This document shows, one piece after another, positions 30,255 through 43,679 of a DNA stretch of 64,000 nt (position 1 is the first letter of the stretch; every line of letters starts with the position of its first letter). The notes under the pieces are model-generated. The model did not search any database. It was given only the letters and a program-made list of their open reading frames with translations, and was not told the origin of the DNA. The stretch lies in the IMG/VR virus record IMGVR_UViG_3300033757_000347; one strand, given 5' to 3'. Origin of the DNA: a virus (Duplodnaviria > Caudoviricetes). The translations under genes were made by a program, and so were the position numbers.

Positions 30255-30378
30255 GGGGGAAAACAAACAGACTGCTCTGTCGATTTTCTTCAGAAATGAT
30301 AGCAATGATTAGAGTTGCATCGGTAAACTTCAAACTTGAAACTTTGAAATGTTGGTTCGAATCCAGCTTCCCCCACCA
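30255..30378 (+). ncRNA. Y-like/tRNA chimera A (shared module replaces the D arm; acceptor stem and CCA intact)
   Basis: GGGGGAA/TTCCCCC-A-CCA; GCTCTGTCGATTTTCT..TAGCAATGATTAGAGTTGCATCG. Confidence 0.7.
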
Positions 30379-30412
30379 ATAACGTTCGTACCACGGTAAA
30401 AGGTACACACTC

Positions 30413-30532
30413 GGGGAAGAAATTCAAAACGCTCTGTCGAATTTCTTCTGAAAGGATAGCAAAGATTAGAGTTGCATCGGAAACAATCAAACTGTCAATT
30501 TGATCACGTGAGTTCGAATCTCACCTTCCCCG
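30413..30532 (+). ncRNA. Y-like/tRNA chimera B (Asp GTC anticodon arm; module replaces the D arm)
   Basis: GGGGAAG/CTTCCCC-G; ATCAAA-CTGTCAA-TTTGAT; T arm. Confidence 0.7.
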
Positions 30533-30573
30533 CATCTTCCGCACCCTCCAGGAAATCAAAAATAGAGGGAAAT

Positions 30574-30655
30574 GGGATGTTATTCCGTAGATGGTAGCGG
30601 GGCAGACTGTAAATCTGTTGTGAAAGCTCGGGTGGTTCGACTCCATCACATCCCA
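30574..30655 (+). tRNA. tRNA-Tyr(GTA)
   Basis: Loop CT-GTA-AA; long variable arm. Confidence 0.85.
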
Positions 30656-30708
30656 CGTAGTTTACAGAGGTTTTGGTAAACAGACCGCATATAAATAAAA
30701 ATAAAGCA

Positions 30709-31176
30709 ATGCGGCTAAACCAAGAAATCGTAGACAAAATCAATGAAAATGCCAAGAACGTTAGCTCTGTTTTGGAACTTTCAGAAGTAACTGGAATCAG
30801 TAGAGTAACCCTAACCAAATATTGCAATTTGTTAGGAATACAAATTGAAGTCAAGTTACGAAAAATGAAAAGAACCGGAGGAGTAGCATTCAAATTGCTA
30901 GACATTCTCGAAGGAAAACATCCAGAATATCCGACATCGAAATTAAAAAGACGATTGATACTGGAAGGTTACAAAGAGGATCGATGCGAAGAATGTGGAA
31001 CTCCAGCAGAATGGAACGGTCGACCTTTATCATTACAAGTCGATCACATTGACGGAAATAACCGAAATCACAGACTTCAAAATCTGAGAATTTTGTGTCC
31101 AAACTGTCATTCACAAACGCATACGTTCGGAGCAAAAAACATTGTAAATAAGAAATCAAGCATAGTAAGGTCATAG
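30709..31176 (+). mobile_element. HNH homing endonuclease
   Basis: CEECG, LQVDHIDGNNRNHRLQNLRILCPNCH. Confidence 0.9.
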
Positions 31177-31292
31177 AGTTACTTCGATCACGAGTTCGAA
31201 TCTCGTACTGCGAAAGCGGTTAGGCAAGCGGTTAAGCCGTCAATCTGTAAAATTGACAACAACAAATACCTCTATCCAATGTTCTTGTTTGA
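31156..31292 (+). ncRNA. Y-like RNA C enclosing a circularly permuted tRNA-Tyr-like domain
   Basis: Module 5' strand, T arm, acceptor closed by GAAA, D arm, GTCAAT-CTGTAAA-ATTGAC, module 3' strand. Confidence 0.75.
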
Positions 31293-31299
31293 AACTTAT

Positions 31300-31368
31300 G
31301 GGCCGAATGCGACGGTTGGTGCGCGCCCCGTCCCACTGGTTATTGAGGGTTCGAATCCCTCTCGGTCC
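31300..31368 (+). pseudogene. Degenerate tRNA-like element
   Basis: GGGCCGA/TCGGTCC and a T arm are present; anticodon arm poorly paired. Confidence 0.45.
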
Positions 31369-31537
31369 TCGGATTTCCAGAAAAATACTCTTCGTATTCC
31401 CACATTTCGTAATCGCGACAAGACTTACAACGACGTAGTGGGAGATCGTTGAACACCAACGGTCTGGTATCTAATCTGACGAAATTGCCTTTCTCGTCAA
31501 TGATGCAGTCGCAGTGGTCGCAGTGGTACAAGTTCAT
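31340..31537 (-). CDS. Small Zn-finger protein antisense to the tRNA array
   Basis: CDHC..CKSC; GATAAATA just upstream on the minus strand. Confidence 0.5.
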   Translation of the reverse strand: MNLYHCDHCDCIIDEKGNFVRLDTRPLVFNDLPLRRCKSCRDYEMWEYEEYFSGNPRTERDSNPQ

Positions 31538-31624
31538 AGCAGTATTTATCGAAAATACTTCACTTCAATTATTTAACATCACCACTTTAGAGTGCAATGC
31601 TCAGATAAATAAAAATAAAGTGAA

Positions 31625-32017
31625 ATGAGAATAGTTGAAGATTTTGTAAGAGAAACGCCAAGGGATATTCGTAAGCAAATGTTAAAGCTTGATGAACCTT
31701 GCCACGAAAGAGGATTAAAGTATTCGACTCAGTTAATCGCACTAGTTGCTTATCATTACGATACGACGATGCCAGTAAATGGAAACACTCTAGTCGTTTG
31801 CCACGGTTGTCATAATTCAAAGTGCAGTAATCCAAATCACATGTATTGGGGTACAAAAGCTGACAATCAACTCGATGAATACGAAAACGGAGCAATATCA
31901 ATTTACGAACGAATGCTTAATAAGTACGGCAAAGAAAAAACGTCAAGCATGATGAAAAAGAATTCATCTAAAGGCGGTAAATCGCCAAGAAAAAATAAAG
32001 TGTTAATGGCCTCGTAG
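31625..32017 (+). mobile_element. HNH (His-Me finger) endonuclease
   Basis: VCHGCHNSKCSNPNHMYWGTKADN. Confidence 0.8.
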
Positions 32018-32092
32018 CTCAGTCAGGTTGCGCAAGCTTAGAGCTTCCGCCTTTTAAGCGGAAAGTCGTTGGTTCGAATCCAACCGGGGTCA
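32008..32092 (+). tRNA. tRNA-Lys(TTT) with enlarged D loop
   Basis: Loop CT-TTT-AA; extra hairpin in the D loop. Confidence 0.8.
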
Positions 32093-32137
32093 CAGATTGG
32101 AAAGGTTCGAGTCCCTCCGGGCCTACCAAAGAAATTT

Positions 32138-32214
32138 GGTCTCGTAGTAGAGTTGGTCACAATGTCTGCCTGTCACGCAGAAGGTCGCGGGTTCGAATCC
32201 CGTCGAGACCGCCA
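32138..32214 (+). tRNA. tRNA-Asp(GTC)
   Basis: Cloverleaf; GCCA end. Confidence 0.9.
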
Positions 32215-32220
32215 AAAAAT

Positions 32221-32299
32221 GGTATCGTAGTTCAGCCTGGTCTAGAATGCCTGCCTGTCACGCAGAGGGTCGAGGGTTCAAATCCCTTCGGTACCGCCA
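32221..32299 (+). tRNA. tRNA-Asp(GTC)
   Basis: Cloverleaf; GCCA end. Confidence 0.9.
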
Positions 32300-32304
32300 G
32301 TATT

Positions 32305-32413
32305 GATTTGTAGTGAGAAACAGAGTTTCATCGTTGGTTATCACAGGTTCGAATCCTGTACCAAGCTTCCATAATGCTTAGTATCAAGTCACTCTTTTCG
32401 GCTTTCTCAAATC
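32305..32413 (+). ncRNA. Y-like RNA D
   Basis: GATTTG-TAGTGA-GAAA(C)AGAGT..ACTCT-TTTC-GGCTTTCT-CAAATC enclosing a T arm and a hairpin. Confidence 0.7.
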
Positions 32414-32473
32414 TTTAATCAAAACAAAAGGGTGTAAGTTCGAATATAAATAAAATAAACAATAAACGAACTT

Positions 32474-33193
32474 ATGAAAATCTGTGAAAACTGTCAATGT
32501 GAACATAATGGAAGTTACGGTTCCGGACGATTTTGTTCAGAAAAATGTTCTAGATCCTTCGTTACTAAAGCAAAGCGTAAGGAAATAAACGAAAAAATTA
32601 GTAAAAAATTAAGTAATCTAGGACACGCACCAATAATTAAATTATGCAGCGTTTGTAACAATCAATTTACGGTAAACTGGGCAAAGAGAACTCAACAATA
32701 TTGTTCAAAAAAATGTTCAGGTAAAATAAATGGTATACTTGGAGGTAATGCTATTAAATCAAATACTTCAGCAATGGGAGGATTTAGACCAAATGGAGGA
32801 AGGCCTAAAACTTTTACATACGTTAATTGGTTAAATGAAAAAATGTCTTTAAACAAAGATGAAATTCTAGTTGCTAAAGTATTAGATCATTTAAAAATCA
32901 AGTGGAATAGAAATTTAGTTGGGTTCGATTATGTAGACATTGATGGTAAAATTAGAAAATACTATCCAGATTTTTATATTTCGGATTTTAATACTTACGT
33001 TGAGTATAAGGGTTGGTTAAATGAAAAAATATTACATAAGATGAATGATGCGATAAACAAAAATTCATTGAAACTAGTCATTATTTACTCAAATGATAAG
33101 AGATATAATAAATTGGGGTTAAGCTTACGAGAATTAGAAATCAACCCAGAATTATTAATACAAAAATGCGTCTATGGTGAAATGGTATCATAA
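32474..33193 (+). mobile_element. PD-(D/E)xK homing endonuclease with Zn fingers
   Basis: FCSEKC, YYPDF, YVEYKG; AT-rich. Confidence 0.8.
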
Positions 33194-33241
33194 TGGTCTC
33201 CAAAACCACAGTTCTCTGTTCGAATCGGAGTAGGCGTGCCA
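33168..33241 (+). tRNA. tRNA-Trp(CCA)
   Basis: Loop CT-CCA-AA; GCCA end. Confidence 0.85.
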
Positions 33242-33251
33242 CATTATTAAT

Positions 33252-33324
33252 GCCTCTTTAGCTCAGACGGTAGAGCGACTGTTTCGTACTCAGTAGGTCG
33301 TCGGTTCGATTCCGGCATGAGGCT
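33252..33324 (+). tRNA. tRNA-Thr(CGT)
   Basis: Loop TT-CGT-AC. Confidence 0.85.
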
Positions 33325-33330
33325 CTCAAC

Positions 33331-33406
33331 GCCTTTGTAGCTCAGCTGATAGAGCCACTGATTTGTACTCAGAAGGTCGGGGGTTTGAATCCCTCCAAAG
33401 GCTCCA
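33331..33406 (+). tRNA. tRNA-Thr(TGT)
   Basis: Loop TT-TGT-AC; CCA end. Confidence 0.85.
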
Positions 33407-33412
33407 CAAAAT

Positions 33413-33619
33413 CACCTCTTAGCTCAGCGGTTAGAGCGTCCGGTTGAGGGCCGGAACTTGAGGACTTCGGTAAGGTACTCGTTTACTTTTGCGCAGAGGT
33501 AACCGATGAAGTAGCCGGGAGAGTCAAGGTAGACGAACCTGAAAATCAAGATGAGGGTACCCGAATCAAGACCATACGGTGTAGTCGAGAAGTCAGAGGT
33601 TCAAATCCTCTAGGGGTGT
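33413..33619 (+). ncRNA. tRNA-like RNA (GAG anticodon) with an about 135-nt insertion in the variable region
   Basis: CACCTCT/AGGGGTG, D arm, TCCGG-TTGAGGG-CCGGA, T arm AGAGG-TTCAAAT-CCTCT. Confidence 0.65.
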
Positions 33620-33744
33620 CGATGAGCCGGCAGGCCACCGGATCGTAGTTCCTCGCTTTCCCTGATCGTAAGGTCAAACGACGAGCCGCACCGTAAGGCG
33701 GACGGGTTGGCAACTCCCGCTGACATTGAACAAAGTTGCATAAC

Positions 33745-33821
33745 GGGCATATAGCTCAGTTGGTTAGAGCATCTGACTGATATTCAGAAGGCCGTAGGTT
33801 CGACTCCTACTTTGCCCACCA
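33745..33821 (+). tRNA. tRNA-Ile(GAT)
   Basis: Cloverleaf; ACCA end. Confidence 0.9.
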
Positions 33822-33828
33822 ATAAATT

Positions 33829-33904
33829 CGAGTAGTAGCGCAGCTGGTAGCGTACAACGTTCGGGACGTTGGGGTCGGAGGTTCGAACCCTCTCTACTCG
33901 ACCA
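33829..33904 (+). tRNA. tRNA-Pro(CGG)
   Basis: Loop TT-CGG-GA. Confidence 0.9.
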
Positions 33905-33916
33905 ATATTAAACTAA

Positions 33917-33990
33917 CGAGTAGTGGCGCAGCTGGCTAGCGTTCTTGATTTGGGATCAAGGGGTCGGAGGTTCGAATCCTCTCTACTCGA
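33917..33990 (+). tRNA. tRNA-Pro(TGG)
   Basis: Loop TT-TGG-GA. Confidence 0.9.
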
Positions 33991-33992
33991 CT

Positions 33993-34103
33993 AAGTAGTA
34001 GTAATGGATAGAGTTACTTCGTCGCCTAACGGTAAGGCAATTGTCTCTTAAACAATCGATGCGGTTCAAATCCGCCTGTTTACTCTCCCGACTTTCTCTA
34101 CTT
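33993..34103 (+). ncRNA. Y-like RNA E (module replaces the acceptor stem; Lys CTT anticodon)
   Basis: D arm, ATTGT-CTCTTAA-ACAAT, T arm, enclosed by AGAGTTACTTCG..ACTCT-CCCGACTTTCT. Confidence 0.75.
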
Positions 34104-34148
34104 TATTTTAACCGCAGTCTTAGATAAATAGAACTAAACTACGGTCAA

Positions 34149-34739
34149 ATGTATCATATCATCTATAAGATTACGAACCTAAAGAATAATAAGATTTATG
34201 TTGGGTATCATGGAACAGAAAATCTTTCAGATTCCTACATGGGTTCAGGGAAAGCAATAAAACTTGCAATACGAAAAACCGGAATAGAAAATTTTGCTAA
34301 AGAAATTTTATACGTTTATCCAACTAAGGAAGAAGCCATTGCTAAAGAGATTGAAATAGTAAATGAAGCTTTTATCGCTAGGAAAGATACCTATAATATC
34401 AAGTTGGGCGGTACTGGAGGTTGGGAACATACGTGGAACGATCCAAAAAGAATCGAAGGAATTAAGAAATCGTTTGAAACAGGTAGAAATAAAGGTTGGC
34501 CGCTATCAGCAGAGGCCAGACAAAAACTCGGAAAATCTTCATTCAAAGGAAAACATCATTCGTTTGAAACTAAAAAGAAAATAAGTGATTCTAAAAAAAT
34601 GAATGAAGTTGACTCATTAAAAAGATTGAAAGAATACCAAAGTATTGATAAATCTTGGGGTTGGATAACTAAATTAGCAAAAAGTTGGGGGATAACGAAT
34701 ACCCAAGTTAAAAGATACATTAAATCAATGGGGATTTAG
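34149..34739 (+). mobile_element. GIY-YIG (Seg-like) homing endonuclease
   Basis: IYKITNLKNNKIYVG, YMGSG, YNIKLGG. Confidence 0.85.
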
Positions 34740-34806
34740 CTCAGATGGCCAGAGCGCCTGCCCTGCAAGCAGGATGTCACGAGTTCGACTCTCGTAATCT
34801 CCACCA
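34730..34806 (+). tRNA. tRNA-Ala(TGC)
   Basis: G3:U70; ACCA end. Confidence 0.85.
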
Positions 34807-34814
34807 CACTAAAT

Positions 34815-34884
34815 GGGCGCGATCCCGAAGGCAGGGCGCTTCACTTGCAATGAAGATGATTGGGTTCAATTCCCACGTGGTCCA
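34815..34884 (+). tRNA. tRNA-Ala(TGC), atypical
   Basis: CTTCA-CTTGCAA-TGAAG; imperfect acceptor stem and D arm. Confidence 0.55.
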
Positions 34885-34888
34885 CTAC

Positions 34889-34974
34889 AAGAAGTAGCAA
34901 GGAACAGAGATACTTCGAAATCAAACGGTGAATTTGAAACTTCCAAAAGATGCTCTTTCCAACATTCTCTTCTT
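34889..34974 (+). ncRNA. Y-like RNA F (module plus one anticodon-like hairpin)
   Basis: GGAA(C)AGAG/CTCTTTCC bulged helix; TCAAA-CGGTGAA-TTTGA. Confidence 0.65.
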
Positions 34975-34980
34975 CGTTTT

Positions 34981-35056
34981 GCTCCCGTAGCTCAGGGGTT
35001 AGAGCAGGAAGCTTATACCTTCAAGGTCGGTGGTTCAATTCCATCCGGGAGTACCA
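34981..35056 (+). tRNA. tRNA-Ile(TAT)
   Basis: Loop CT-TAT-AC; ACCA end. Confidence 0.8.
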
Positions 35057-35059
35057 CAT

Positions 35060-35134
35060 GCTCCGTTCGTCTAGTCGGCCAAGGACGTCAGGTTTTCATC
35101 CTGGAGATCAGGGGTTCGAATCCCCTACGGAGTA
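35060..35134 (+). tRNA. tRNA-Glu(TTC)
   Basis: Loop TT-TTC-AT. Confidence 0.85.
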
Positions 35135-35147
35135 CGCAAAGCCAAAT

Positions 35148-35221
35148 GGTCCTGTAGACGAACAGGTTAAGTCGTTGCCCTTTCAAGGCAAAGGTTGCGG
35201 GTTCGAGCCCCGTCGGGACTA
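35148..35221 (+). tRNA. tRNA-Glu(TTC)
   Basis: Loop CT-TTC-AA. Confidence 0.85.
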
Positions 35222-35230
35222 CTCAAAATT

Positions 35231-35304
35231 GATCGTATAGCTCAGTTGGTTAGAGCGCTTCCGTGACATGGAAGAGGCCGTAGGTTCGAATCCCACTATG
35301 ATCA
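35231..35304 (+). tRNA. tRNA-Val(GAC)
   Basis: Cloverleaf. Confidence 0.85.
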
Positions 35305-35309
35305 CACAA

Positions 35310-35387
35310 GCTCTCTTAACTCAGTTGGTTCAGAGTGTCACTCTTACAAAGTGAAAGTCGTAAGTTCGAATCTTACAGAGAGCACCA
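35310..35387 (+). tRNA. tRNA-Val(TAC)
   Basis: Cloverleaf; ACCA end. Confidence 0.9.
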
Positions 35388-35393
35388 ATAATT

Positions 35394-35469
35394 GGAAGCG
35401 TAGCTCAGTCGGTAGAGCGCAAGCCTGAAGAGCTTGGCGTCGGCGGTTCGATTCCGTCCGTTTCCACCA
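35394..35469 (+). tRNA. tRNA-Phe(GAA)
   Basis: Cloverleaf; ACCA end. Confidence 0.9.
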
Positions 35470-35472
35470 CAT

Positions 35473-35544
35473 TGCGGGGTAGAGCAGAGGTAGCTCGTGA
35501 GACTCATAATCTCAAGGTCGTGGGTTCGACCCCCACTCCCGCTA
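35473..35544 (+). tRNA. tRNA-Met(CAT), initiator-like
   Basis: Unpaired 1:72; fMet-type D arm. Confidence 0.8.
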
Positions 35545-35607
35545 CTAAACGCAGTCGGATGGTAACTCCAAAGAACGGTTCGCCGTGTTGCCGGAGGGCT
35601 GCTCCAT

Positions 35608-35679
35608 GCCGAGGTAGTTCAGAGGCAGAACAGTTGAATCATAATCAACAAGTCGGGATTTCAAAATTCCCCCTCGGTA
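35608..35679 (+). tRNA. tRNA-Met/Ile2(CAT)
   Basis: GTTGA-ATCATAA-TCAAC. Confidence 0.75.
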
Positions 35680-35688
35680 CTAAGATTT

Positions 35689-35779
35689 GGAGAGGTGTCC
35701 GAGCGGCCGAAGGAGCATATCTGGAAAGTATGTGATCGCCAAAAGCGGTTCATGGGTTCGAATCCCATTCTCTCCGCCA
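35689..35779 (+). tRNA. tRNA-Ser(GGA)
   Basis: Long variable arm; GCCA end. Confidence 0.9.
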
Positions 35780-35785
35780 AAACAT

Positions 35786-35868
35786 GCTCTCATGGCGGAA
35801 TAGGTAGACGCGAGGGTCTTAAAAACCCTTGTCCGTAGGGCGTGTCGGTTCGATTCCGACTGGGAGTA
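35786..35868 (+). tRNA. tRNA-Leu(TAA)
   Basis: Leu-type D arm; long variable arm. Confidence 0.9.
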
Positions 35869-35876
35869 CTAAATTT

Positions 35877-35958
35877 GCCCGTATGGCGGAACTGGTAGAC
35901 GCGCTGCACTCAAAACGCAGTTTCGAAAGGAGTGTCGGTTCGACTCCGACTATGGGTA
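35877..35958 (+). tRNA. tRNA-Leu(CAA)
   Basis: Leu-type D arm; long variable arm. Confidence 0.9.
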
Positions 35959-36023
35959 CAAAACAGTAGAGTGGTAACTTTTATTATCGCTATTCATATA
36001 AATAAAAGAAAACACTCTACCTA

Positions 36024-36626: not shown

Positions 36627-36687
36627 TTAAATGGCATAACGCATCCTTGGTAAGGATGAATTTCGAGTTCGATTCTCGATTTGAGCT
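36617..36687 (+). tRNA. tRNA-Thr(GGT)
   Basis: CATCC-TTGGTAA-GGATG. Confidence 0.8.
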
Positions 36688-37622: not shown

Positions 37623-37689
37623 TCAACCGTGTGGCATACCGACCTTGCCAGGTCGGGGAGCGAGGCTAACGATCTCGCAATCTGCTCCA
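37597..37689 (+). ncRNA. Degenerate tRNA-Gly-like RNA ending TCCA
   Basis: GCAGA/TCTGC-TCCA; CCGACC-TTGCCA-GGTCGG; non-canonical D and T arms. Confidence 0.45.
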
Positions 37690-37750
37690 ACTAAAGAGGA
37701 ACAACTTGTGCAGGTGCCTCAGGGGACTGCAGCCCCACTGCACTCTACAC

Positions 37751-37824
37751 TGTCCTATGGCGTAACTGGCTATCGCGCATGACTCTGGATCATGAGATTC
37801 TAGGTTCGAACCCTAGTAGGACAA
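37751..37824 (+). tRNA. tRNA-Gln(CTG)
   Basis: Loop CT-CTG-GA. Confidence 0.85.
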
Positions 37825-37845
37825 CATACAAATTTGCTAGTACAC

Positions 37846-37920
37846 TGCCCTCTAGCGTAATGGTATCGTGTCTGACTTTGGATCAGGAGATTGGGAGTTC
37901 GAGTCTCCCGGGGGCAACCA
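37846..37920 (+). tRNA. tRNA-Gln(TTG)
   Basis: Loop CT-TTG-GA; ACCA end. Confidence 0.85.
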
Positions 37921-38121
37921 AACTTAACAATTAAAACAGCAAACACACTAGAAAAAAGAACTTACGTTGATGAGATCAACGAAGTTACGATAGAATTTTA
38001 CAGTGATGCCAAACAGTCTACTATAAATTCGCTATCTTTTAACGGCGAGTGGTACACAGTACGAAAAATATTGGTAGATTGGGGTTATCAAGTAGTAGAA
38101 AAACCTACTGTCAACTGATTC

Positions 38122-38208
38122 GGAAGAGTACTCAAGCGGTTTACGAGACCTGTCTTGAAAACAGGCGATCATGAAAGTGGTCCGGGGGTTCGAATCCCTC
38201 CTCTTCCG
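38122..38208 (+). tRNA. tRNA-Ser(TGA)
   Basis: Long variable arm; G73. Confidence 0.9.
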
Positions 38209-38215
38209 CGTAAAT

Positions 38216-38302
38216 GGAAAGGTGCTAGAGAGGTCGATTAGGCTTGTCTCGAAAACAAGTGATCGGGTGACCGGTCCCAGGGTTCGAATCCCTGCCTTTC
38301 CG
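38216..38302 (+). tRNA. tRNA-Ser(CGA)
   Basis: Long variable arm; G73. Confidence 0.9.
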
Positions 38303-38591
38303 CACTAAAGATAAAGTTAGCAGGACCGCAGATCCTGTTAAAATCCTGGATCCGAGCCGCGTTCGACAACCGCTGCGGGTTATCGATCGAACAACGGTGA
38401 AAGGGGTTTCGAGTTGCATGGGACGCTGCCCTTTAATGTTCAATGGGATTTAGAATGAAACCAAGTACTGAAGTCTAACGACGGAGGGACGGTGCGCTGA
38501 TTCAAAAATCTCTCGAGACATTTTAACCGTTTGGAATAACGGAGCCCAGATGGGAGAGAGTACGAGGCTCTCCTCGAAACCGAATCAAAAT

Positions 38592-38675
38592 GCCCAAGTG
38601 GCGGAACTGGTAGACGCGCTAGGTTGAGGGCCTAGTGTCCGGTAGGACGTAGGGGTTCGAGTCCCCTCTTAGGTA
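38592..38675 (+). tRNA. tRNA-Leu(GAG)
   Basis: Loop TT-GAG-GG. Confidence 0.9.
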
Positions 38676-38676
38676 C

Positions 38677-38831
38677 AAAAGTAATAGCGATTGGAAACAG
38701 TTACTTCGCTTTAGGAGCCGGTACACTGGAGGTTCGAGTCCTTCCCTGGAGACCAAACAACAGATCCTCTTCAGGTGGCGGAATTGGTAGACGCGCCGTA
38801 AACGTTACTGTCCAAAACATTCTTTACTTTT
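38677..38831 (+). ncRNA. Y-like RNA G enclosing a permuted tRNA-Leu (3' half, linker, 5' half)
   Basis: TTTAGGA..T arm..CCTGGAGA-CCA linker TCTTCAGG-TGGCGGAATTGGTAGACGC inside the module. Confidence 0.75.
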
Positions 38832-38835
38832 ACTT

Positions 38836-38919
38836 GCTCGTATGGCGGAATTGGTAGACGCGCTGCGTTCAGGGCGCAGTGTTCTTAAGAGCGTGTCGGT
38901 TCGAGTCCGACTATGAGTA
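38836..38919 (+). tRNA. tRNA-Leu(CAG)
   Basis: Loop TT-CAG-GG. Confidence 0.9.
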
Positions 38920-38944
38920 CTGAGTATAAGAAAATAAAAAGCCA

Positions 38945-39319
38945 ATGGACGATTTTTACCGACTGACTAAGGATCACGAAAAAATAATGAGAGAGTGTAA
39001 AGATCTCGCTCTGGACGTGTTCATCGAAAGAAAGGATGAACACTACCGCAGAGTTCCGGATCCAACTTCTTTCGACGATCTGTTGAAAATCTTCGCCGAG
39101 TCAACGATGCACTGGGTTTTTATCAAACGAAAACAGAATCCAGTCGGACCTTACGTGAAGCAAGAAAATGGCGAATACAAAAAGTACGAGACATACTACG
39201 AAGTTGGCGGATGTACAATGTTGCATAAGGATGGATTCGATTACTTCCTATTCATTTACATGACCGAAGAAATTGGAGACGAATTCGTAAAAAAGTACAA
39301 GTTGAAACTTTTGAAATAA
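38945..39319 (+). CDS. Hypothetical protein inside the tRNA array
   Basis: 124-aa ORF with genome-typical codon usage. Confidence 0.65.
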   Translation: MDDFYRLTKDHEKIMRECKDLALDVFIERKDEHYRRVPDPTSFDDLLKIFAESTMHWVFIKRKQNPVGPYVKQENGEYKKYETYYEVGGCTMLHKDGFDYFLFIYMTEEIGDEFVKKYKLKLLK

Positions 39320-39325
39320 AAACAT

Positions 39326-39407
39326 GCCCAGGTGGCGAAATAGGTAGACGCCCCAGATTTAGGATCTGGTGTCGCAAGGCGTGCAGGTTCGATTCCTGTC
39401 CTGGGTA
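39326..39407 (+). tRNA. tRNA-Leu(TAG)
   Basis: Loop TT-TAG-GA. Confidence 0.9.
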
Positions 39408-39412
39408 CATAT

Positions 39413-39480
39413 AGACGTAGCAAACAGAAAGGGTTACTTCGTATCGGAAAATGAAAACACTCTATGCGATTTTCTCGTCT
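39413..39480 (+). ncRNA. Y-like RNA H (module only)
   Basis: AGACG-TAGCAA..AGGGTTACTTCG..ACTCT-ATGCGATTTTCT-CGTCT. Confidence 0.7.
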
Positions 39481-39488
39481 TTTTACAT

Positions 39489-39562
39489 GGTGTTTATAGT
39501 GTTAATGGTCAGCACGAAAGTTTGTGGCACTTTTAGTACCAGTTCGAATCTGGTTAGACACC
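39489..39562 (+). tRNA. tRNA-His(GTG)
   Basis: G-1/C73; loop TT-GTG-GC. Confidence 0.85.
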
Positions 39563-39687
39563 CATTTTTAAAAACGAGTCATGCCGCAATAGCTCAACGG
39601 TTAGAGCGCTTACTGAAAAATGCGGTTTGAAACATTCTTTGTTTTTTACTTTTTGATTATGGGGACAGTATAAATAAATAAAAAACT

Positions 39688-40338
39688 ATGCTGTGTTCAT
39701 ATTGCCAAATCAATGAAGCTAATTTCACATTAAAAAACGGAAAGGCTTGCTGTTCGCCAACTTATCAATCATGCCCAGGTATTAAGGCAAAAATTGGTAT
39801 CAAAATAAGTGCTAAGCTTACCGAACAATATAAAAATGGAATTAGAGAAAGTCATTTTAAAAAATTAAATGATGGATCGGTATGGCGCGGTAGATCACAT
39901 AAACAAGAAACCAAGGATTTATTATCTAACCTCAGTATTGGTCGTAAAATGCCCAAATCTTTTAGCGATAATAGAAGCACGGAAATGAAAAGTCGTTACT
40001 TGAATGGTTGGGAATCCAAGGCCGGAAGAACTAAAAAAATTGATTACGTTAGTTCAATCGCTGGATCTGTTAAATTAGATGGTTCCTGGGAATTAGCAGT
40101 AGCAAAATTTTTTGATCTAACTAATACTAATTGGGTTAGAAACAAAAAACGATTTGATTACACTGATTCATTAGGAAAAACAAGAACGTATTGTCCCGAT
40201 TTTTATTTACCAGATTCGTGTACGTACATTGAAGTTAAAGGTTACACTACTGAGTTGGATAGAATTAAATGGAATCAATTTAATGAAAATTTAGAAGTAT
40301 GGGATAAACCAGTTTTGAAGAACAAAGGAATATTATAA
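39688..40338 (+). mobile_element. PD-(D/E)xK homing endonuclease
   Basis: DGSWE, YCPDF, YIEVKG. Confidence 0.8.
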
Positions 40339-40427
40339 GGTAGAGTGACCGAGAGGTTTAAGGTAGCAGTTTGCTAAACTGTCGGTCGGTGAAAACTGGC
40401 CCGGAGGTTCGAATCCTCTCTCTGCCG
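40339..40427 (+). tRNA. tRNA-Ser(GCT)
   Basis: Long variable arm; G73. Confidence 0.9.
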
Positions 40428-40502
40428 CTCAGATTAAAGCTGATAGTTATTGTGGCCCTTCGATTTGAATCGCACAGGCATCACGCTATCACACGACAGA
40501 AC

Positions 40503-40577
40503 GGCCCTGTAGGTCAACGGATAGACCGGAAGTTTCCTAAACTTTAAATCTGGGTTCGATTCCCGGTGGGGCTACCA
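40503..40577 (+). tRNA. tRNA-Arg(CCT)
   Basis: Loop TT-CCT-AA; A20. Confidence 0.85.
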
Positions 40578-40613
40578 ATTGGTAAGTTAAAACACAGCAA
40601 ATCAATGAACAAT

Positions 40614-40689
40614 GGCTCCGTAGCTCAATGGATAGAGCATTAGCCTTCTAAGCTAACGGTTGAGCGTTCGAGCCGCTCCGGAGTCACCA
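40614..40689 (+). tRNA. tRNA-Arg(TCT)
   Basis: Loop CT-TCT-AA. Confidence 0.9.
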
Positions 40690-40701
40690 AGAATAACAAT
40701 T

Positions 40702-40774
40702 GCATCCATAGCTCAGCAGGTAGAGTAGCTGACTCTTAATCAGTGGGTCGTGGGTTCGAATCCCTCTGGATGCA
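40702..40774 (+). tRNA. tRNA-Lys(CTT)
   Basis: Loop CT-CTT-AA. Confidence 0.85.
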
Positions 40775-40804
40775 CAGATCAATATTTTCCAAGCTGTCAA
40801 AAAC

Positions 40805-40876
40805 GGCCTGTTAGCTCAACGGATAGAGTACCGGTTTCCGGAACCGAGGATATGCGTTCGATTCGCGTACAGGTCA
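40805..40876 (+). tRNA. tRNA-Arg(CCG)
   Basis: Loop TT-CCG-GA. Confidence 0.85.
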
Positions 40877-40888
40877 CTAAAAATACAT

Positions 40889-40962
40889 GCCCGCGTAGCT
40901 TAATTGGATAGAGCTTTTGACTACGGATCAAAGGGTTGGGGGTTCGAGTCCCTCCGCGGGTA
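40889..40962 (+). tRNA. tRNA-Arg(ACG)
   Basis: Loop CT-ACG-GA. Confidence 0.9.
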
Positions 40963-40975
40963 CTGAGTAAAGCAC

Positions 40976-41050
40976 GGCAAGGTGCTCGAGTGGTCAAAGG
41001 GGACTGTCTGCAAAACAGTAAAGTCATGGGTTCGAATCCCATCCTTGCCT
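40976..41050 (+). tRNA. tRNA-Cys(GCA)
   Basis: Loop CT-GCA-AA; U73. Confidence 0.85.
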
Positions 41051-41131
41051 CAAGTTGGAATATTTTCGCGCGAAGAGACCAATGAGTAGTAAAAAGAGTA
41101 AAGTAAAACAACTAAAAAAACCGATACTGAA

Positions 41132-42760
41132 ATGACAAAGTTCAGAAACGCAAATCTTCGTACTAAGCTTGCCAAGACGGCGCCTAAGGCGAAGTTAGTA
41201 GCTGCTAACGCAGTTCCTACGCCTAACACTGTCAATCGTTCGGGCCACGCGGCTTATGCGATCGACAAGTGGTTGAGACTGATCACAATGCTCAACACCT
41301 TGAAGCTGGAAAACCAGTTCTACAGGTCAGAAAATGAAACCATGAGGGAACTCAAGGGCATCGTTACTGCCTGTGCAAAGGAAGATCCTTACCTAACCGC
41401 ACAGTGCATCGTGTACTCACGTTGCGTTGGTGAAGGTATGAGGTCGATCAACCACCTCGCAGCAAGCTACCTCGCTCCTTACTGCGCTGGTCTCGAATGG
41501 GCGAAGAGGTTCTACTCACTGTGGAACAAGAAGACTCAGTCTGGTGGAACCATTTTCCGTCCAGATGACATGGCCGAAATTCTCGCCTGTTTCTCGGCTA
41601 TGAACAAGACGAAGGCAACGAACTCAATGAAGAAGGGTTTCGCAGACGCAATCGAAAGGCTCGACGCATACTCGATCCTTAAGTACAAGTCCGCTTTGAT
41701 CGACGTTATCAACCTCGTTCACCCTGACCCAAAGCAGTCGAAGGCATTCGTTGAATTCAAGGGCGAAAGGGTGACCGCTATCGACGCTGTCATCAAGGGC
41801 TTGGCCGTATCTGCCGACACCTGGGAAGTTGCTAACTCTGACGCAGGTCAGGAAGTTGCAAAGGCCGTAAAGGCTGGCAAGATCACCAAGGCCGAAGGTG
41901 CAGAAATCCTCAAGGAAGCTAAGGCTGAAAACTGGGGAGCTCTGTTGACCGAAGGTAAGCTAGGTACTCTAGCAGCTCTGCGTAACATCAGGAGCATTCT
42001 GAACACGGTCTCCGATCGTGCGACGATTGACAAGCTGTGCGCGGTTCTGTCGGATCCAAACCTTATCAGGCAGGCAAAGATCATGCCTTACCAGATCGAC
42101 ATGGCCGGCGAAATTCTGCTCGCAGAATTCGGCTCGAAGATGGACGGAAGGAAGATCGCTCAGGCTCTGTTGATCGGTTACGAAGCATCCGTTCCAAACC
42201 TTGCGGAAGCATTGCCAGGAAGGAACCTCGTTATCATCGACAGGTCCGGCTCCATGACCACGAAGATGGTCGACCCTAACAGGAAGACTCAGTACTCAAC
42301 GTCATGTGCTGACAAGGCATCCTTGATCGGAGCAACAATCGCGAAGGCAACAAACGCTGACGTTATTCAGTTCGGATCGAGCGCTCACTACACTCCATGG
42401 AACGCAAACCAGGACGTATTCTCGATCGCAAGGTCGTTCAATGCTAACCTTGGTGGAACCAACCTAAGCACCGCTTGGGATCTGGCAGCACGTTCCGGAA
42501 AGGCGTACGACAGGGTGTTCATCCTCTCTGACAACGAATGCAACCGTGGAAACACGTACTCTTCGTACACGAACTACCTGAGGACTGTTGGAAACCCATA
42601 CGTCTACTCTGTAGACATGGCGTCCTACGGCACGACTCAGCTGATCGGAGACAAGGTCCGTTTCTACTACGGTTACGGCTTCTCGATGTTCGACGACATC
42701 GCCAACGTCGAATTCAATCCTACATACCACCTGGACAAGGTACGTAAGATCGTAATCTAA
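41132..42760 (+). CDS. Ro60/Rsr-like TROVE-domain RNA-binding protein with C-terminal vWA domain
   Basis: VNRSGHAAY, QFYRSE, ALRNIRSI, MIDAS DRSGSM, GGTN, ILSDNE; 542 aa. Confidence 0.85.
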   Translation: MTKFRNANLRTKLAKTAPKAKLVAANAVPTPNTVNRSGHAAYAIDKWLRLITMLNTLKLENQFYRSENETMRELKGIVTACAKEDPYLTAQCIVYSRCVGEGMRSINHLAASYLAPYCAGLEWAKRFYSLWNKKTQSGGTIFRPDDMAEILACFSAMNKTKATNSMKKGFADAIERLDAYSILKYKSALIDVINLVHPDPKQSKAFVEFKGERVTAIDAVIKGLAVSADTWEVANSDAGQEVAKAVKAGKITKAEGAEILKEAKAENWGALLTEGKLGTLAALRNIRSILNTVSDRATIDKLCAVLSDPNLIRQAKIMPYQIDMAGEILLAEFGSKMDGRKIAQALLIGYEASVPNLAEALPGRNLVIIDRSGSMTTKMVDPNRKTQYSTSCADKASLIGATIAKATNADVIQFGSSAHYTPWNANQDVFSIARSFNANLGGTNLSTAWDLAARSGKAYDRVFILSDNECNRGNTYSSYTNYLRTVGNPYVYSVDMASYGTTQLIGDKVRFYYGYGFSMFDDIANVEFNPTYHLDKVRKIVI

Positions 42761-42771
42761 CACTCACTAAC

Positions 42772-42803
42772 CGAGGCCGGTTCCAGGCCGGCCTCGTTTT
42801 TTT
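42772..42803 (+). terminator. Intrinsic terminator after the Ro60 gene
   Basis: CGAGGCCGG..CCGGCCTCG plus T-tract. Confidence 0.8.
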
Positions 42804-42808
42804 CACAT

Positions 42809-42917
42809 GGAGTAAAAGGGCCGAAACGGTCCCGAAGGACCTGCTAAAAGCCTAGGTAAGTTAGTAAGGCTTCGGAAAAGCTGAATCGGATTGCTAGTTC
42901 AATTCTGGCTACTCCTC
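42809..42917 (+). ncRNA. Atypical tRNA-like RNA downstream of Ro60
   Basis: GGAGTA/TACTCC; T arm GCTAG-TTCAATT-CTGGC; several small hairpins instead of D and anticodon arms. Confidence 0.5.
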
Positions 42918-43139
42918 TAAAAATAAATAATTCTTTGAAACCGCTGACGAGGTGGGTGTAAGATAAACAACAGGGACTGCTGTTGGCCCGAAAAGGTGAG
43001 ACGGTAGGTAGCTTAGGCGCAGAAATGCGTTACCGAATCAATCGGAGGTTTATACTAGGGGGACACAGGGAAATTAGATGAAGTACCTCCCTCGAAAAGT
43101 AGTCGACGGTTTCTTTGTTCTTTGAAGACATTAAAAATA

Positions 43140-43269
43140 TTTGGGTAGCAACGCGTAGGGATACTTCGTAGCTTAGTTGGTTTAAGCAATTGTTCGCAAC
43201 ACAATGGATCGCCGGTTCAAGTCCGGCCGAACGCCGAGAGGCGTAAAGCCCTTGCCCCATTCTCCCAAA
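43140..43269 (+). ncRNA. Y-like RNA I (module replaces the acceptor stem; GCA anticodon)
   Basis: TAGCAA..AGGGATACTTCG, D arm, ATTGT-TCGCAAC-ACAAT, T arm, CCCTTGC..TTCT. Confidence 0.75.
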
Positions 43270-43284
43270 AACTTATTAAAAACC

Positions 43285-43332
43285 ATGAAGAGAATCAACA
43301 GTTCGTAGGGTCAGATCGTTCTGACAATATGA
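43285..43332 (+). promoter_or_regulatory. Amber-terminated leader MKRINSS(TAG); readthrough would end in ATGA at the next start
   Basis: TAG 43306-08; hairpin GTCAGA/TCTGAC; TGA 43330-32 overlaps ATG 43329. Confidence 0.55.
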
Positions 43333-43529
43333 AAACACAAACTGAAAAACCGAAACAGCCTCTCAAGTATTGGCTGGTAGACATCACCCTTACGAGTGGT
43401 GAAGTTCTACACTTTTACGTGAAAGCCCTGAACATTCACGAAGCTTATCAAAAAGCTGATGGGTATGCAGAATGGACGAGTAACGAGCAGTTGTTGAATC
43501 ACCTGCGAACTTTCAAACTCATGGTTTGA
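43329..43529 (+). CDS. Hypothetical protein
   Basis: 66-aa ORF. Confidence 0.6.
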   Translation: MKTQTEKPKQPLKYWLVDITLTSGEVLHFYVKALNIHEAYQKADGYAEWTSNEQLLNHLRTFKLMV

Positions 43530-43542
43530 AATTGAATTTAAG

Positions 43543-43679
43543 AAATCCGGTAGTAAAGGAGCAGAGTTACTTCGCGAAAATCGCCCAGCTGATAGGGCAA
43601 TTGTTTTGGGGACAATAGGTCAGCGGTTTGAATCCGCCTTTTTGCAACACAGACAACTCTTCTCGACTTTCTCCGATTT
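43543..43679 (+). ncRNA. Y-like RNA J (module replaces the acceptor stem; Pro TGG anticodon)
   Basis: TAGTAA..AGAGTTACTTCG, D arm, ATTGT-TTTGGGG-ACAAT, T arm, AACTCT..CGACTTTCT. Confidence 0.75.

What the first reader, a model, noticed from the sequence alone, without database searches (positions are those of the whole stretch)
30255..43679. Family of at least ten Y-like RNAs: one bulged-helix module grafted onto tRNA parts with different anticodons, around a Ro60 gene
Seen: a bipartite motif, strand 1 TAG(C/T)RA-N3-6-AGAGTTACTTCG and strand 2 RCTCT-N3-4-CGAYTTTCT, closed by a variable terminal stem. It recurs at 30255, 30413, 31156, 32305, 33993, 34889, 38677, 39413, 43140 and 43543. The strands pair with covariation (AGAGT/ACTCT, ACAGT/ACTGT, AGGG/CCCT) and a 1-2 nt bulge, often C or T. 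The cargo varies: D+anticodon+T arms with Lys CTT, Cys GCA or Pro TGG loops (module in place of the acceptor stem), permuted tRNAs, a lone hairpin, or nothing. Known: Ro60 binds a bulged helix in Y RNAs, and bacterial YrlA RNAs carry a tRNA-like domain, usually one or two per locus and without an anticodon loop. Inference: an expanded panel of Ro60-tethered tRNA mimics that present anticodon loops as bait or inhibitors for tRNA-targeting enzymes, or that recruit repair factors.
Basis: partly seen in the sequence, partly recalled or inferred. Interest (0 to 1): 0.93.

Follow-up and report, generated by a model that had tools for sequence, protein, structure and literature searches.

The report
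Phage Ro60 partner RNAs carrying tRNA mimics
A large uncultured phage carries ten small RNA genes that share one conserved folded "handle" joined to different tRNA look-alikes, all clustered around its gene for the RNA-binding ring protein Ro60. The same handle sits beside Ro60 genes in many other phages, so these are most likely an undescribed, much expanded kind of Y RNA.

Summary
Exactly ten copies of the bipartite motif lie at the stated places, all on the + strand between 30.2 and 43.7 kb. No other copy with the upstream UAGYRA exists in the 174-kb phage record. The two strands form a real RNA structure: a variable closing stem, an invariant bulged helix (G-U-AG-Y-AA over UUUCU-C), an internal loop, a covarying inner helix, then the invariant UUACUUCG. 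On 45 relatives, 93.5% of cells pair, 9 of 13 pairs show compensatory change, and 0 of 500 shuffles reach this.

The handle is tied to Ro60:
- All 30 Ro60-ascertained viral loci carry it, with 105 hits all on the Ro60 strand.
- All 5 complete motif-bearing genomes encode Ro60.
- Ro60 genes only 30-41% identical still have it directly upstream.
- It also flanks the Ro60 gene of a GenBank gut crAss-like phage.

Cargo is tRNA-derived and grafted at different points: acceptor end, anticodon stem, variable region and D-arm position. Circular permutations and cargo-free forms also occur. Rfam's YrlA model matches only the T/acceptor/D core of one cargo class, never the handle.

Ro60 binding and the bait function remain untested. 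Verdict: a new variant of the Ro60/Y RNA kind. The scan has noted similar Ro60-linked handle arrays on other DNA.

The parts
30255..30378 (+). E1, permuted form. A tRNA-like RNA with a 7-bp acceptor stem (GGGGGAA/TTCCCCC) and encoded ACCA. The handle forms a hairpin capped by TCA-GAAA-TGA where the D arm should be. An anticodon-like arm has the loop CUUGAAAC (the phage's Ser-UGA loop plus one base), followed by a T arm.
   Evidence: Read. The same architecture, with covarying acceptor stems, recurs in 14 distinct relatives. The linear model R1 does not find it, as expected for a permutation.
30413..30534 (+). E2, second permuted form. Acceptor GGGGAAG/CTTCCCC, handle hairpin in the D-arm position, anticodon-like loop CUGUCAA (Asp GUC; 6 of 7 bases match the phage's own tRNA-Asp loop), T arm.
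31157..31291 (+). E3. The handle encloses a permuted tRNA: T arm, acceptor-like hairpin with a GAAA loop, D arm, then an anticodon arm whose loop CUGUAAA is identical to the phage tRNA-Tyr loop. The handle emerges at the variable-region position. The stop codon of the HNH ORF 30673-31176 lies inside strand 1.
   Evidence: R1 34.3 bits, E 1.3e-4, model 1-76; sequence; ORF
32305..32413 (+). E4. Handle (variant UAGUGA, UUUCAUCG) enclosing a T arm inside a 5-bp stem, plus a small hairpin. No anticodon arm.
   Evidence: R1 36.3 bits, E 5e-5; fold
33993..34103 (+). E5. Handle in place of the acceptor stem. Cargo is a D arm, an anticodon arm with loop CUCUUAA (identical to the phage tRNA-Lys CUU loop) and a T arm. 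It starts 2 nt after tRNA-Pro.
   Evidence: R1 45.5 bits, E 7e-7; Rfam tRNA model positions 7-64 only, 40.9 bits
34889..34974 (+). E6. Handle with a single 5-bp hairpin as cargo (loop CGGUGAA). It ends 7 nt before tRNA-Ile.
   Evidence: R1 61.8 bits, E 3e-10
38679..38829 (+). E7. Handle at the anticodon-stem position of a permuted Leu-type tRNA body: extra hairpin, T arm, acceptor 3' strand with ACCA, linker, acceptor 5' strand, D arm. This is the order found in YrlA. It lies between two tRNA-Leu genes, 3 and 7 nt away.
   Evidence: R1 26.4 bits, E 0.005; sequence; tRNAs
39412..39481 (+). E8. Minimal 70-nt handle with no cargo, 4 nt after tRNA-Leu and 9 nt before tRNA-His.
   Evidence: R1 57.6 bits, E 2e-9
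41132..42760 (+). Ro60 (TROVE + vWA) gene, 542 aa, followed by a strong terminator at 42772-42796.
   Evidence: Pfam TROVE, VWA_2 and vWA_Ro60 all fall just under their cut-offs. Sequence match to Thermus phage phiLo Ro60 (9L5Y/9KOP), E 1e-9 over residues 38-520. AlphaFold model pLDDT 76.8; its 13 best PDB matches are all Ro60, E 1e-13 to 2e-11, TM about 0.6. MIDAS motif DRSGS at 370-374. Terminator.
43140..43269 (+). E9. Handle plus D arm, anticodon arm (loop UCGCAAC, Cys GCA with C at position 33), T arm, a 4-bp acceptor-like stem (UUCG/CGAA) and an extra GAGA-loop hairpin.
   Evidence: R1 22.4 bits, E 0.03; Rfam tRNA model positions 4-67, 45.8 bits; relatives of this class
43545..43678 (+). 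E10. Handle enclosing a complete cloverleaf (Pro UGG). The G of UUACUUCG is tRNA position +1. The acceptor stem has G3.U70 and A73. The elbow is degenerate: no GG in the D loop, and the T loop is UUUGAAU.
   Evidence: R1 35.5 bits, E 7e-5; ARAGORN tRNA-Pro 43574-43646; Rfam tRNA 50.1 bits, model 1-71

Best explanation
These are phage Y RNA-like partners of the phage Ro60 protein.

Each RNA consists of a conserved handle. The handle has a closing stem, a bulged helix G-U-AG-Y-AA over UUUCU-C, an internal loop, a 5-9 bp inner helix and the invariant UUACUUCG. It plays the part of the Ro60-binding stem of Y RNAs. A variable tRNA-derived head is attached to it.

The genes lie inside the phage's tRNA operon. 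The RNAs are probably cut out by the same enzymes that trim the neighbouring tRNAs.

The resulting Ro60 particles would each display a tRNA-shaped domain. Several carry an authentic anticodon loop but no usable acceptor end. I think they engage proteins that recognise tRNA. The most likely role is in the contest over tRNA integrity during infection: as competitive inhibitors or decoys of host tRNA-cleaving defence nucleases, or as adaptors that bring Ro60 and an associated exonuclease or the phage RNA ligase to damaged tRNA.

Shown here: the structure, its conservation, the linkage to Ro60 and the tRNA origin of the heads.
Inferred: Ro60 binding (my estimate about 0.7), release by tRNA processing, and the decoy or adaptor role (about 0.25-0.3).
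For: 1. The structure is real. On 45 relatives, 93.5% of cells pair against 77.8% in shuffles. Nine of 13 pairs show changes on both sides, the covariation score is 0.446 against 0.136, and 0 of 500 shuffles reach it. Partners slid by one to three columns fall to 46-59% paired. Strand 2 was located without using the inner helix, yet that helix pairs 5 of 5 in 168 of 262 elements, against 17% with swapped partners. In phage csAssE-Sib the otherwise invariant A8-U92 pair is G-C.

2. Linkage to Ro60.
- All 30 loci fetched through Ro60 alone carry R1 hits; all 105 hits are on the Ro60 strand and cluster at the gene.
- Of 15 long contigs fetched through the RNA motif, 13 encode Ro60, including 5 of 5 complete genomes.
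- Ro60 genes only 30-41% identical have the handle directly upstream on the same strand.
- Ro60 is the only protein gene conserved in 16 divergent neighbourhoods.
- The handle also lies next to the Ro60 genes of the uncultured 635-kb phage LR745206 and of csAssE-Sib. Variant handles follow the TROVE gene of Bacteroides phage PhiCrAssBcn17.

3. Kinship with Y RNAs. The YrlA model aligns the T arm, acceptor hairpin and D arm of one cargo class (35.5 bits, model positions 24-84). The layout (terminal stem, internal loop, second stem, then a YUAY-type UUAC) parallels the YrlA consensus (Chen 2014, PMC4201824). Cargo-free forms parallel YrlB.

4. The heads are not ordinary decoders.
- Most lack an acceptor stem or are permuted.
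- All five readable anticodons in the window duplicate standard tRNA genes of the same phage.
- Members of one scaffold class carry 11 different triplets in 16 sequences, including UUA, UCA and A34 forms, while the handle stays identical.

5. Of 215 high-confidence elements, 97 lie within 10 nt of a tRNA on at least one side, with tight spacing of 3-5 nt after and 5-9 nt before.

6. Context: an RNA ligase gene lies at 50843-52096. Hughes 2020 proposed that YrlA may inhibit an anticodon nuclease.
Against: - No binding, expression or processing data exist for any member.
- The handle lacks the GNCGAA motif that marks the Ro60-binding strand of bacterial and phiLo Y RNAs. No Rfam Y RNA model reaches its threshold.
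- All carriers also share a tRNA array, so the co-occurrence is partly shared ancestry rather than many independent events.
- Of 19 short motif-bearing fragments, 12 show no Ro60, though each is only 3-15% of a genome.
- Some heads are complete, high-scoring tRNAs (54-62 bits) that normal processing could simply release.
- Anticodon diversity could be relaxed constraint rather than selection. The triplet columns are about twice as variable as the rest but are not uniquely so.
Confidence: 0.6

Rival explanations
1. The handle is a leader-trailer clamp on precursor tRNAs. It holds real tRNAs in an unprocessed, uncharged state, for storage, timing or quality control. RNase P and 3' trimming later release them. 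Ro60 would at most chaperone the precursors.
For: Many handles enclose complete, high-scoring tRNAs (Rfam model 1-71, 54-62 bits). In E10 and its relatives the G of UUACUUCG is exactly tRNA +1. GenBank annotates two such cargos as tRNA-Tyr and tRNA-Lys. An RNase P RNA-like match lies in the same array.
Against: Fifty-one distinct members carry no tRNA-like cargo at all. Most others lack an acceptor stem, are permuted or have only a T arm. UACUUCG occupies different registers in different classes: a leader in one, acceptor positions 1-7 in another. Cargo anticodons duplicate normal tRNA genes in this phage. Nonsense and A34 triplets occur.
Confidence: 0.12
2. The handle works without Ro60. It binds another phage or host protein, or is an RNA-only stability or processing element for small RNAs made from tRNA operons. 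It lies near Ro60 only because both belong to the same inherited tRNA island.
For: The known Ro60-binding motif is absent. Modules spread over 13 kb in the window, and many fetched loci hold modules but no Ro60 within about 10 kb. All carriers share tRNA arrays.
Against: Linkage persists down to 30% Ro60 identity, with the handle directly upstream on the same strand. It also holds in a crAss-like phage with only a handful of tRNAs. No other neighbouring gene is conserved. The YrlA-like core occurs in one cargo class.
Confidence: 0.15
3. The elements are decaying tRNA duplicates and gene-conversion debris, created by the many homing endonucleases in the array and sharing a repeated flank. They have no function of their own.
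For: HNH, GIY-YIG and other endonuclease genes lie between the tRNAs. Several pseudo-tRNAs lie nearby. Heads look exchanged as cassettes between otherwise identical handles.
Against: Compensatory changes occur in both helices, with invariant loop nucleotides, across Ro60 divergence from 99% to 30%. Strand orientation is strict, and spacing to tRNAs is conserved.
Confidence: 0.03

Closest known systems
YrlA, the tRNA-like bacterial and phage Y RNA (Rfam RF02553; Chen et al. 2014, PMC4201824)
   Same: It is encoded next to and co-oriented with Ro60. The 5' and 3' ends pair into a stem interrupted by an internal loop, followed by a second stem and a YUAY-type element. The effector domain is a permuted tRNA in the order T arm, acceptor hairpin, D arm. 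The YrlA model aligns this core in members L216 and L163, and E7 has the same order.
   Different: The stem has its own invariant sequences (UAGYAA, UUACUUCG, UUUCU) instead of GNCGAA. No member reaches the Rfam threshold (35 bits against 69). Most members carry other heads: complete tRNAs, acceptor-less tRNAs with true anticodon loops, variable-region or D-arm grafts, T-arm minihelices or nothing. This genome holds ten copies; Chen et al. report 355 YrlAs in 254 bacteria and 22 phages, about 1.3 per genome.
YrlB and Thermus phage phiLo Yrl1/Yrl2: short Y RNAs without a tRNA-like domain (PMC12135203)
   Same: The minimal 64-76 nt members, such as E8, are stem, internal loop, stem RNAs beside a phage Ro60 gene. 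The phiLo Ro60 is the closest solved sequence relative of this protein.
   Different: Binding of phiLo Yrl RNAs depends on a CGAA motif. The family here does not conserve CGAA. No handle is visible upstream of phiLo Ro60.
Circularly permuted tRNA genes and two-piece tmRNA
   Same: E3 and E7 have the 3' half of a tRNA before the 5' half. E1 and E2 are circular permutations of handle-outside relatives that share the same GGGGGAA/TTCCCCC-ACCA acceptor.
   Different: No coding tag and no G3.U70 occur in the permuted forms. Rfam's permuted-tmRNA model gives no significant match. Here the permutation moves a protein-binding handle rather than restoring a decoder.
Phage tRNAs that escape tRNA-targeting defences (van den Berg et al. 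2023, PMC10264068; Azam et al. 2024, PMC11555353)
   Same: Phage-encoded tRNA-shaped RNAs sit in large tRNA arrays, in a setting where the anticodon loop is the contested surface.
   Different: Those are functional replacement tRNAs. Most RNAs here cannot be charged and are coupled to Ro60. I cite these papers by title and abstract only.

Membership tests
Y RNA / YrlA (Rfam RF02553) | Encoded adjacent to, and in the orientation of, a Ro60 (TROVE) gene | tested here: met
   In the window, E9 lies 380 nt downstream of Ro60 and the other nine lie within 11 kb on the same strand. All 30 Ro60 loci carry hits, and all 105 hits are on the Ro60 strand. In distant loci the handle is directly upstream.
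Y RNA / YrlA (Rfam RF02553) | 5' and 3' ends pair into a stem with a bulge or internal loop | tested here: met
   The closing stem plus bulged-U helix is predicted by RNAalifold. The full two-helix structure is supported by compensatory changes.
Y RNA / YrlA (Rfam RF02553) | Conserved GNCGAA(N)G motif in the 5' strand of the stem (Chen 2014) | tested here: not met
   The family consensus 5' strand is G-UAGYAA...AGAGU-UACUUCG. The YrlA model consensus is cggCgaA. CGA occurs on the 3' strand in 5 of the 10 window copies (CGG in a sixth, E4) but is not conserved in relatives.
Y RNA / YrlA (Rfam RF02553) | tRNA-like domain in the order T arm, acceptor hairpin, D arm | tested here: inconclusive
   Met in one cargo class: L216 35.5 bits and L163 34.9 bits over model positions 24-84, and E7 by reading. 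Not met in the other classes.
Y RNA / YrlA (Rfam RF02553) | Score at or above the Rfam gathering threshold (69 bits) | tested here: not met
   No match on any of the ten window elements even at E up to 10. The best relative scores 35.5 bits.
Y RNA / YrlA (Rfam RF02553) | Physically bound by Ro60 | not testable with these tools
Ro60 / TROVE protein | HEAT-repeat ring plus C-terminal vWA domain with a MIDAS motif | tested here: met
   The 13 best PDB fold matches are all Ro60 (1YVR, 9KOP, 2NVO, human Ro60), E 1e-13 to 2e-11, TM about 0.6 over the full length. phmmer to phiLo Ro60 gives E 1e-9. DRSGS lies at 370-374. The Pfam models fall just under their cut-offs.
tRNA (RF00005) | Complete cloverleaf with a 7-bp acceptor stem and free ends | tested here: not met
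   Only E10 has a full cloverleaf (model 1-71, 50.1 bits), and its ends are buried in the handle. E5 and E9 match model positions 7-64 and 4-67 only. ARAGORN misses nine of the ten.
Known self-cleaving ribozymes or riboswitches | Match to any curated Rfam model | tested here: not met
   Only tRNA-type and chance-level matches appear in 29000-44500 at E up to 10.

The most novel reading that the evidence does not exclude
The array is a natural panel of RNA decoys. Ro60 rings each hold an uncharged tRNA mimic that presents a genuine anticodon loop and soaks up or blocks the host's tRNA-cleaving immune nucleases. The panel evolves by swapping anticodon arms as cassettes on a constant handle. This would be a new anti-defence mechanism and the first clear job for a bacterial or phage Ro60-Y RNA particle.
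Probability: 0.22. Interest if true: 0.92.

Novelty: new variant of a known kind. Interest (0 to 1): 0.8.

Why it matters
What Ro60-Y RNA particles do outside animals remains an open question. Hughes et al. [quoted passage not shown]

This family has a constant handle and interchangeable tRNA heads, some with authentic anticodon loops. That makes the nuclease-inhibitor idea directly testable.

The family is widespread. More than 100 viral stretches match an exact pattern. It occurs in huge phages from sludge and lakes, in a 635-kb GenBank phage and in human-gut crAss-like phages. Variant copies lie in Bacteroides phages that can be grown in the laboratory.

There is also a practical point: parts of these RNAs are currently annotated as ordinary tRNA genes, which inflates phage tRNA counts.

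Tried and rejected
- Megablast of 38000-44000 against GenBank phages found no match.
- The Rfam Y_RNA and YrlA models do not hit any of the ten window elements. The low YrlA scores in the window fall on tandem true tRNAs, an artefact Chen et al. also describe.
- RNAalifold on the MAFFT alignment recovered only the outer helix. I had to supply the inner helix before counting pairs.
- My first pattern-located set contained false positives (window 5488, 26162, 29657, 29702). I filtered them by requiring the inner helix and UACUUCG.
- The pattern scan of bacterial genomes returned mostly chance matches: only 4 of 100 loci held a real module.
- The promoter scan was not above chance. Only the terminator after Ro60 is convincing.
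- The 340-nt spacer between Ro60 and E9 has no folding signal (z 0.01) and is conserved only in close relatives.
- The Thermus phage phiLo region upstream of Ro60 has no handle. An isolated UUACUUCG octamer there lies in what reads as a short ORF remnant, and I do not count it as evidence.
- A mobile element with terminal inverted repeats: rejected. The conserved blocks are not mutually complementary, and the helices covary at the RNA level.
- A ribozyme: no curated model matches.
- No protein-protein complex job was sent, because the open question is RNA-protein binding.

Full report
SETTING

The window is the minus strand of a 174,479-bp IMG/VR virus record, estimated 67% complete. It holds 44 ARAGORN tRNA genes, all on the + strand, 42 of them between 29.4 and 43.7 kb. 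Homing-endonuclease genes (HNH, GIY-YIG and others) are interspersed among them. A 542-aa gene lies at 41132-42760. Its Pfam matches to TROVE, VWA_2 and vWA_Ro60 fall just under the cut-offs. Other evidence shows it is a true Ro60:
- It matches the Ro60 of Thermus phage phiLo over residues 38-520 (E 1e-9).
- An AlphaFold model built on 11 relatives has pLDDT 76.8.
- The 13 best PDB fold matches are all Ro60 (frog, human, Deinococcus Rsr, phiLo), with E 1e-13 to 2e-11 and TM about 0.6.
- The vWA domain keeps the MIDAS motif DRSGS.

Yes. The strand-1 12-mer with up to 2 mismatches occurs 36 times in the whole record on both strands. Ten of these lie on the + strand within 13.3 kb, and only these ten are preceded by TAG[CT][AG]A. 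I built a covariance model, R1, from 45 short relatives. It finds eight of the ten as complete matches and nothing else in the window below E = 1. The remaining two, E1 and E2, are circular permutations: strand 2, a 3-bp stem closed by GAAA, then strand 1.

THE STRUCTURE OF THE HANDLE

From 5' to 3' the handle reads as follows.
- A closing stem of 4-6 variable base pairs.
- G, a bulged U, A-G paired to C-U, a Y.U mismatch, and A-A paired to U-U. Together these give the invariant UAGYAA over UUUCU.
- An asymmetric internal loop.
- An inner helix of 5-9 bp.
- The nearly invariant UUACUUCG.
- The cargo.
- An A-rich run, the 3' strand of the inner helix, the loop, and UUUCU-C.

RNAalifold predicted the outer helix with the bulged U on its own. 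Counting pairs for the full structure on 45 distinct sequences gave these results:
- 93.5% of cells are paired, against 77.8% in shuffles.
- Nine of 13 pairs have changes on both sides.
- The covariation score is 0.446 against 0.136.
- 0 of 500 shuffles reach the observed values.
- Sliding the partner by 1-3 columns drops pairing to 46-59%.

The closing stem was used to locate strand 2, so its perfect pairing is partly built in. The inner helix was not used. It pairs 5 of 5 in 168 of 262 elements, against 17% when strand 2 is taken from another element, and it occurs in more than 15 Watson-Crick variants. In phage csAssE-Sib the otherwise invariant A-U pair of the bulged helix is G-C.

LINK TO RO60

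1. I fetched 30 viral loci through the Ro60 protein alone (37-99% identity). Every one carries R1 matches. There are 105 hits, all on the Ro60 strand, and they cluster at the gene.
2. I fetched 103 viral stretches through an exact RNA pattern. Of the 15 long contigs among them, 13 encode Ro60, including all 5 that are complete. The two without Ro60 are 26% and 39% complete.
3. Of 19 short fragments (3-15% of a genome each), 7 still hold Ro60.
4. Where Ro60 is only 30-41% identical, a handle lies directly upstream on the same strand. One such case is a 3.5-Mb Lewinellaceae MAG contig.
5. Ro60 is the only protein gene conserved across 16 divergent neighbourhoods.
6. In GenBank, a handle lies about 430 nt upstream of the Ro60 gene of the uncultured 635-kb phage LR745206.
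7. Three handles precede the 'Ro sixty-related protein' of the gut phage csAssE-Sib. Two of their cargos are annotated there as tRNA-Tyr and tRNA-Lys.
8. Variant handles (UAGUGUA, UUACUUCA, GUUCU) fill the unannotated gap after the TROVE gene of Bacteroides phage PhiCrAssBcn17.

These carriers are related and all have tRNA arrays, so the events are not independent. Even so, the association survives very deep Ro60 divergence.

THE CARGO

- E10 encloses a whole cloverleaf, with the G of UUACUUCG at position +1.
- E5 and E9 have D, anticodon and T arms but no real acceptor stem. In the E9 class, UUCG pairs with CGAA or CGAG after the T arm. Members with UUCU have AGAG or AGAA there, which is a compensatory change.
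- E3 is a permuted tRNA (T arm, acceptor hairpin, D arm, anticodon arm), with the handle leaving from the variable region.
- E7 has the YrlA order (T arm, acceptor, D arm), with the handle at the anticodon-stem position.
- E4 keeps a T-arm minihelix.
- E6 carries a hairpin, and E8 carries nothing.
- E1 and E2 are CCA-ended tRNA-like RNAs with the handle as a hairpin in the D-arm position.

Fourteen distinct relatives of the E1/E2 type show covarying acceptor stems. Other phages carry the same GGGGGAA/TTCCCCC-ACCA acceptor in the opposite permutation. All these classes recur among 215 high-confidence elements.

THE ANTICODON LOOPS

The anticodon loops in the window copy those of the phage's own tRNAs: 7 of 7 bases for Lys, Tyr and Ser, and 6 of 7 for Pro and Asp. 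The stems differ. Every readable anticodon duplicates a standard tRNA gene.

Within one scaffold class, 16 members carry 11 different triplets, including UUA, UCA, AUU and AUC. The mean pairwise difference is 0.62 at the triplet against 0.29 elsewhere. Members with identical handles differ throughout the tRNA body. That suggests whole heads are exchanged as cassettes.

RELEASE FROM THE OPERON

Of the 215 elements, 97 lie within 10 nt of a tRNA on at least one side. They sit typically 3-5 nt after the upstream tRNA and 5-9 nt before the next one. The ends of these RNAs could therefore be made by the enzymes that trim the tRNAs. This step is inferred.

COMPARISON WITH WHAT IS KNOWN

Bacterial and phage YrlA RNAs lie beside Ro60, have a stem carrying GNCGAA, and have a permuted tRNA-like domain. 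The Rfam YrlA model does not match any of the ten window elements. It does align the T arm, acceptor hairpin and D arm of E7-type relatives (35.5 and 34.9 bits, model positions 24-84, below the threshold of 69). It never aligns the stem.

The handle shares the layout of the YrlA stem, including a UUAC where YrlA has YUAY. It does not share the sequence. The phiLo Yrl RNAs depend on CGAA, which this family does not conserve.

I found no paper describing this handle, or Y RNAs in crAss-like phages, in five searches. The recent tRNA-mimic families (skipping-rope, DUF2693-FD, salivarius-1) are unrelated to Ro60. Hughes et al. 2020 had already suggested that YrlA might competitively inhibit an anticodon nuclease.

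VERDICT

The family is real. It is very probably the RNA partner of phage Ro60, and it is best filed as a new, strongly expanded and modular variant of the Y RNA kind. Binding and function are inferred, not shown. Earlier notes of this scan describe similar handle-plus-tRNA-mimic arrays beside Ro60-like genes in other phages. I did not re-test those.

Noticed in passing
L030 3519-3933 and L031 8468-8884: A GOLLD RNA (RF02032, 281 and 277 bits) lies directly upstream of the handle cluster and the Ro60 gene in the two loci with 37%-identical Ro60. I did not look for reports of a GOLLD-Ro60 neighbourhood.
   Followed up: no
window 36676-36880: A match to archaeal-type RNase P RNA (37.7 bits, E 8e-8) lies between tRNA-Thr and tRNA-Gly. 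It is far below the gathering score of 84. It may be a reduced phage RNase P RNA.
   Followed up: no
E10 (window 43574-43646) and relatives in L013, L018, L022, L031, L119, L128, L130: The complete-tRNA cargos often have G3.U70 plus A73, the alanine identity set, whatever their anticodon (UGG, CAG, UAG). By my reading this holds in about 8 of 13. Its meaning is unknown.
   Followed up: partly
L008 11934, L010 9181, L121 4020, L027 11898, L017 1608, L067: Several cargo anticodon loops carry stop-reading triplets (UUA, UCA) or A34 triplets (AUU, AUC) on scaffolds that lack a usable acceptor stem.
   Followed up: partly
L267 4630-4702 and 4775-4848 (phage csAssE-Sib, OR575929.1): Two features annotated as tRNA-Tyr and tRNA-Lys lie inside handle elements directly upstream of the Ro60 gene. 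They are probably Y-like RNAs, not free tRNAs.
   Followed up: partly
L269 5085-5730 (Bacteroides phage PhiCrAssBcn17, OQ221552.1): An unannotated 900-nt gap after the TROVE gene holds at least four variant handles, two of them in CCA-type tRNA-like RNAs. The phage grows on Bacteroides intestinalis, so it is a tractable system.
   Followed up: partly
window 32008-32130: A composite tRNA-like element has two T arms and a terminal ACCA. ARAGORN calls part of it tRNA-Leu(tag), and Rfam matches only model positions 7-64.
   Followed up: no
window 29168-29283, 31300-31370, 34821-34883, 39585-39650: Further odd tRNA relatives occur in and near the array: a 116-nt tRNA match with a long insertion, two sub-threshold pseudo-tRNAs flanking E3 and E6, and an acceptor-plus-D-arm fragment closed into a hairpin.
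   Followed up: no
L216 (Lewinellaceae MAG, 3.5-Mb contig) and L163 (Saprospiraceae MAG): Real handles occur in Bacteroidota MAG contigs. In L216 the order is nine tRNAs, a handle, then Ro60. This hints at Saprospirales hosts or prophages.
   Followed up: partly
L024 12812-13190 and L031 20868-21275: tmRNA genes lie in the same tRNA and Ro60 islands of related phages.
   Followed up: no
window 23142-23858, 44357-44839, 50843-52096: Neighbouring genes include a Tad6-like Thoeris inhibitor, a NUDIX hydrolase and an RNA ligase (PF09414).
   Followed up: no
window 53251-53324: A tRNA with a CUA anticodon (called Pyl by ARAGORN) is an amber suppressor candidate. Other reports of this scan already cover it.
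   Followed up: no
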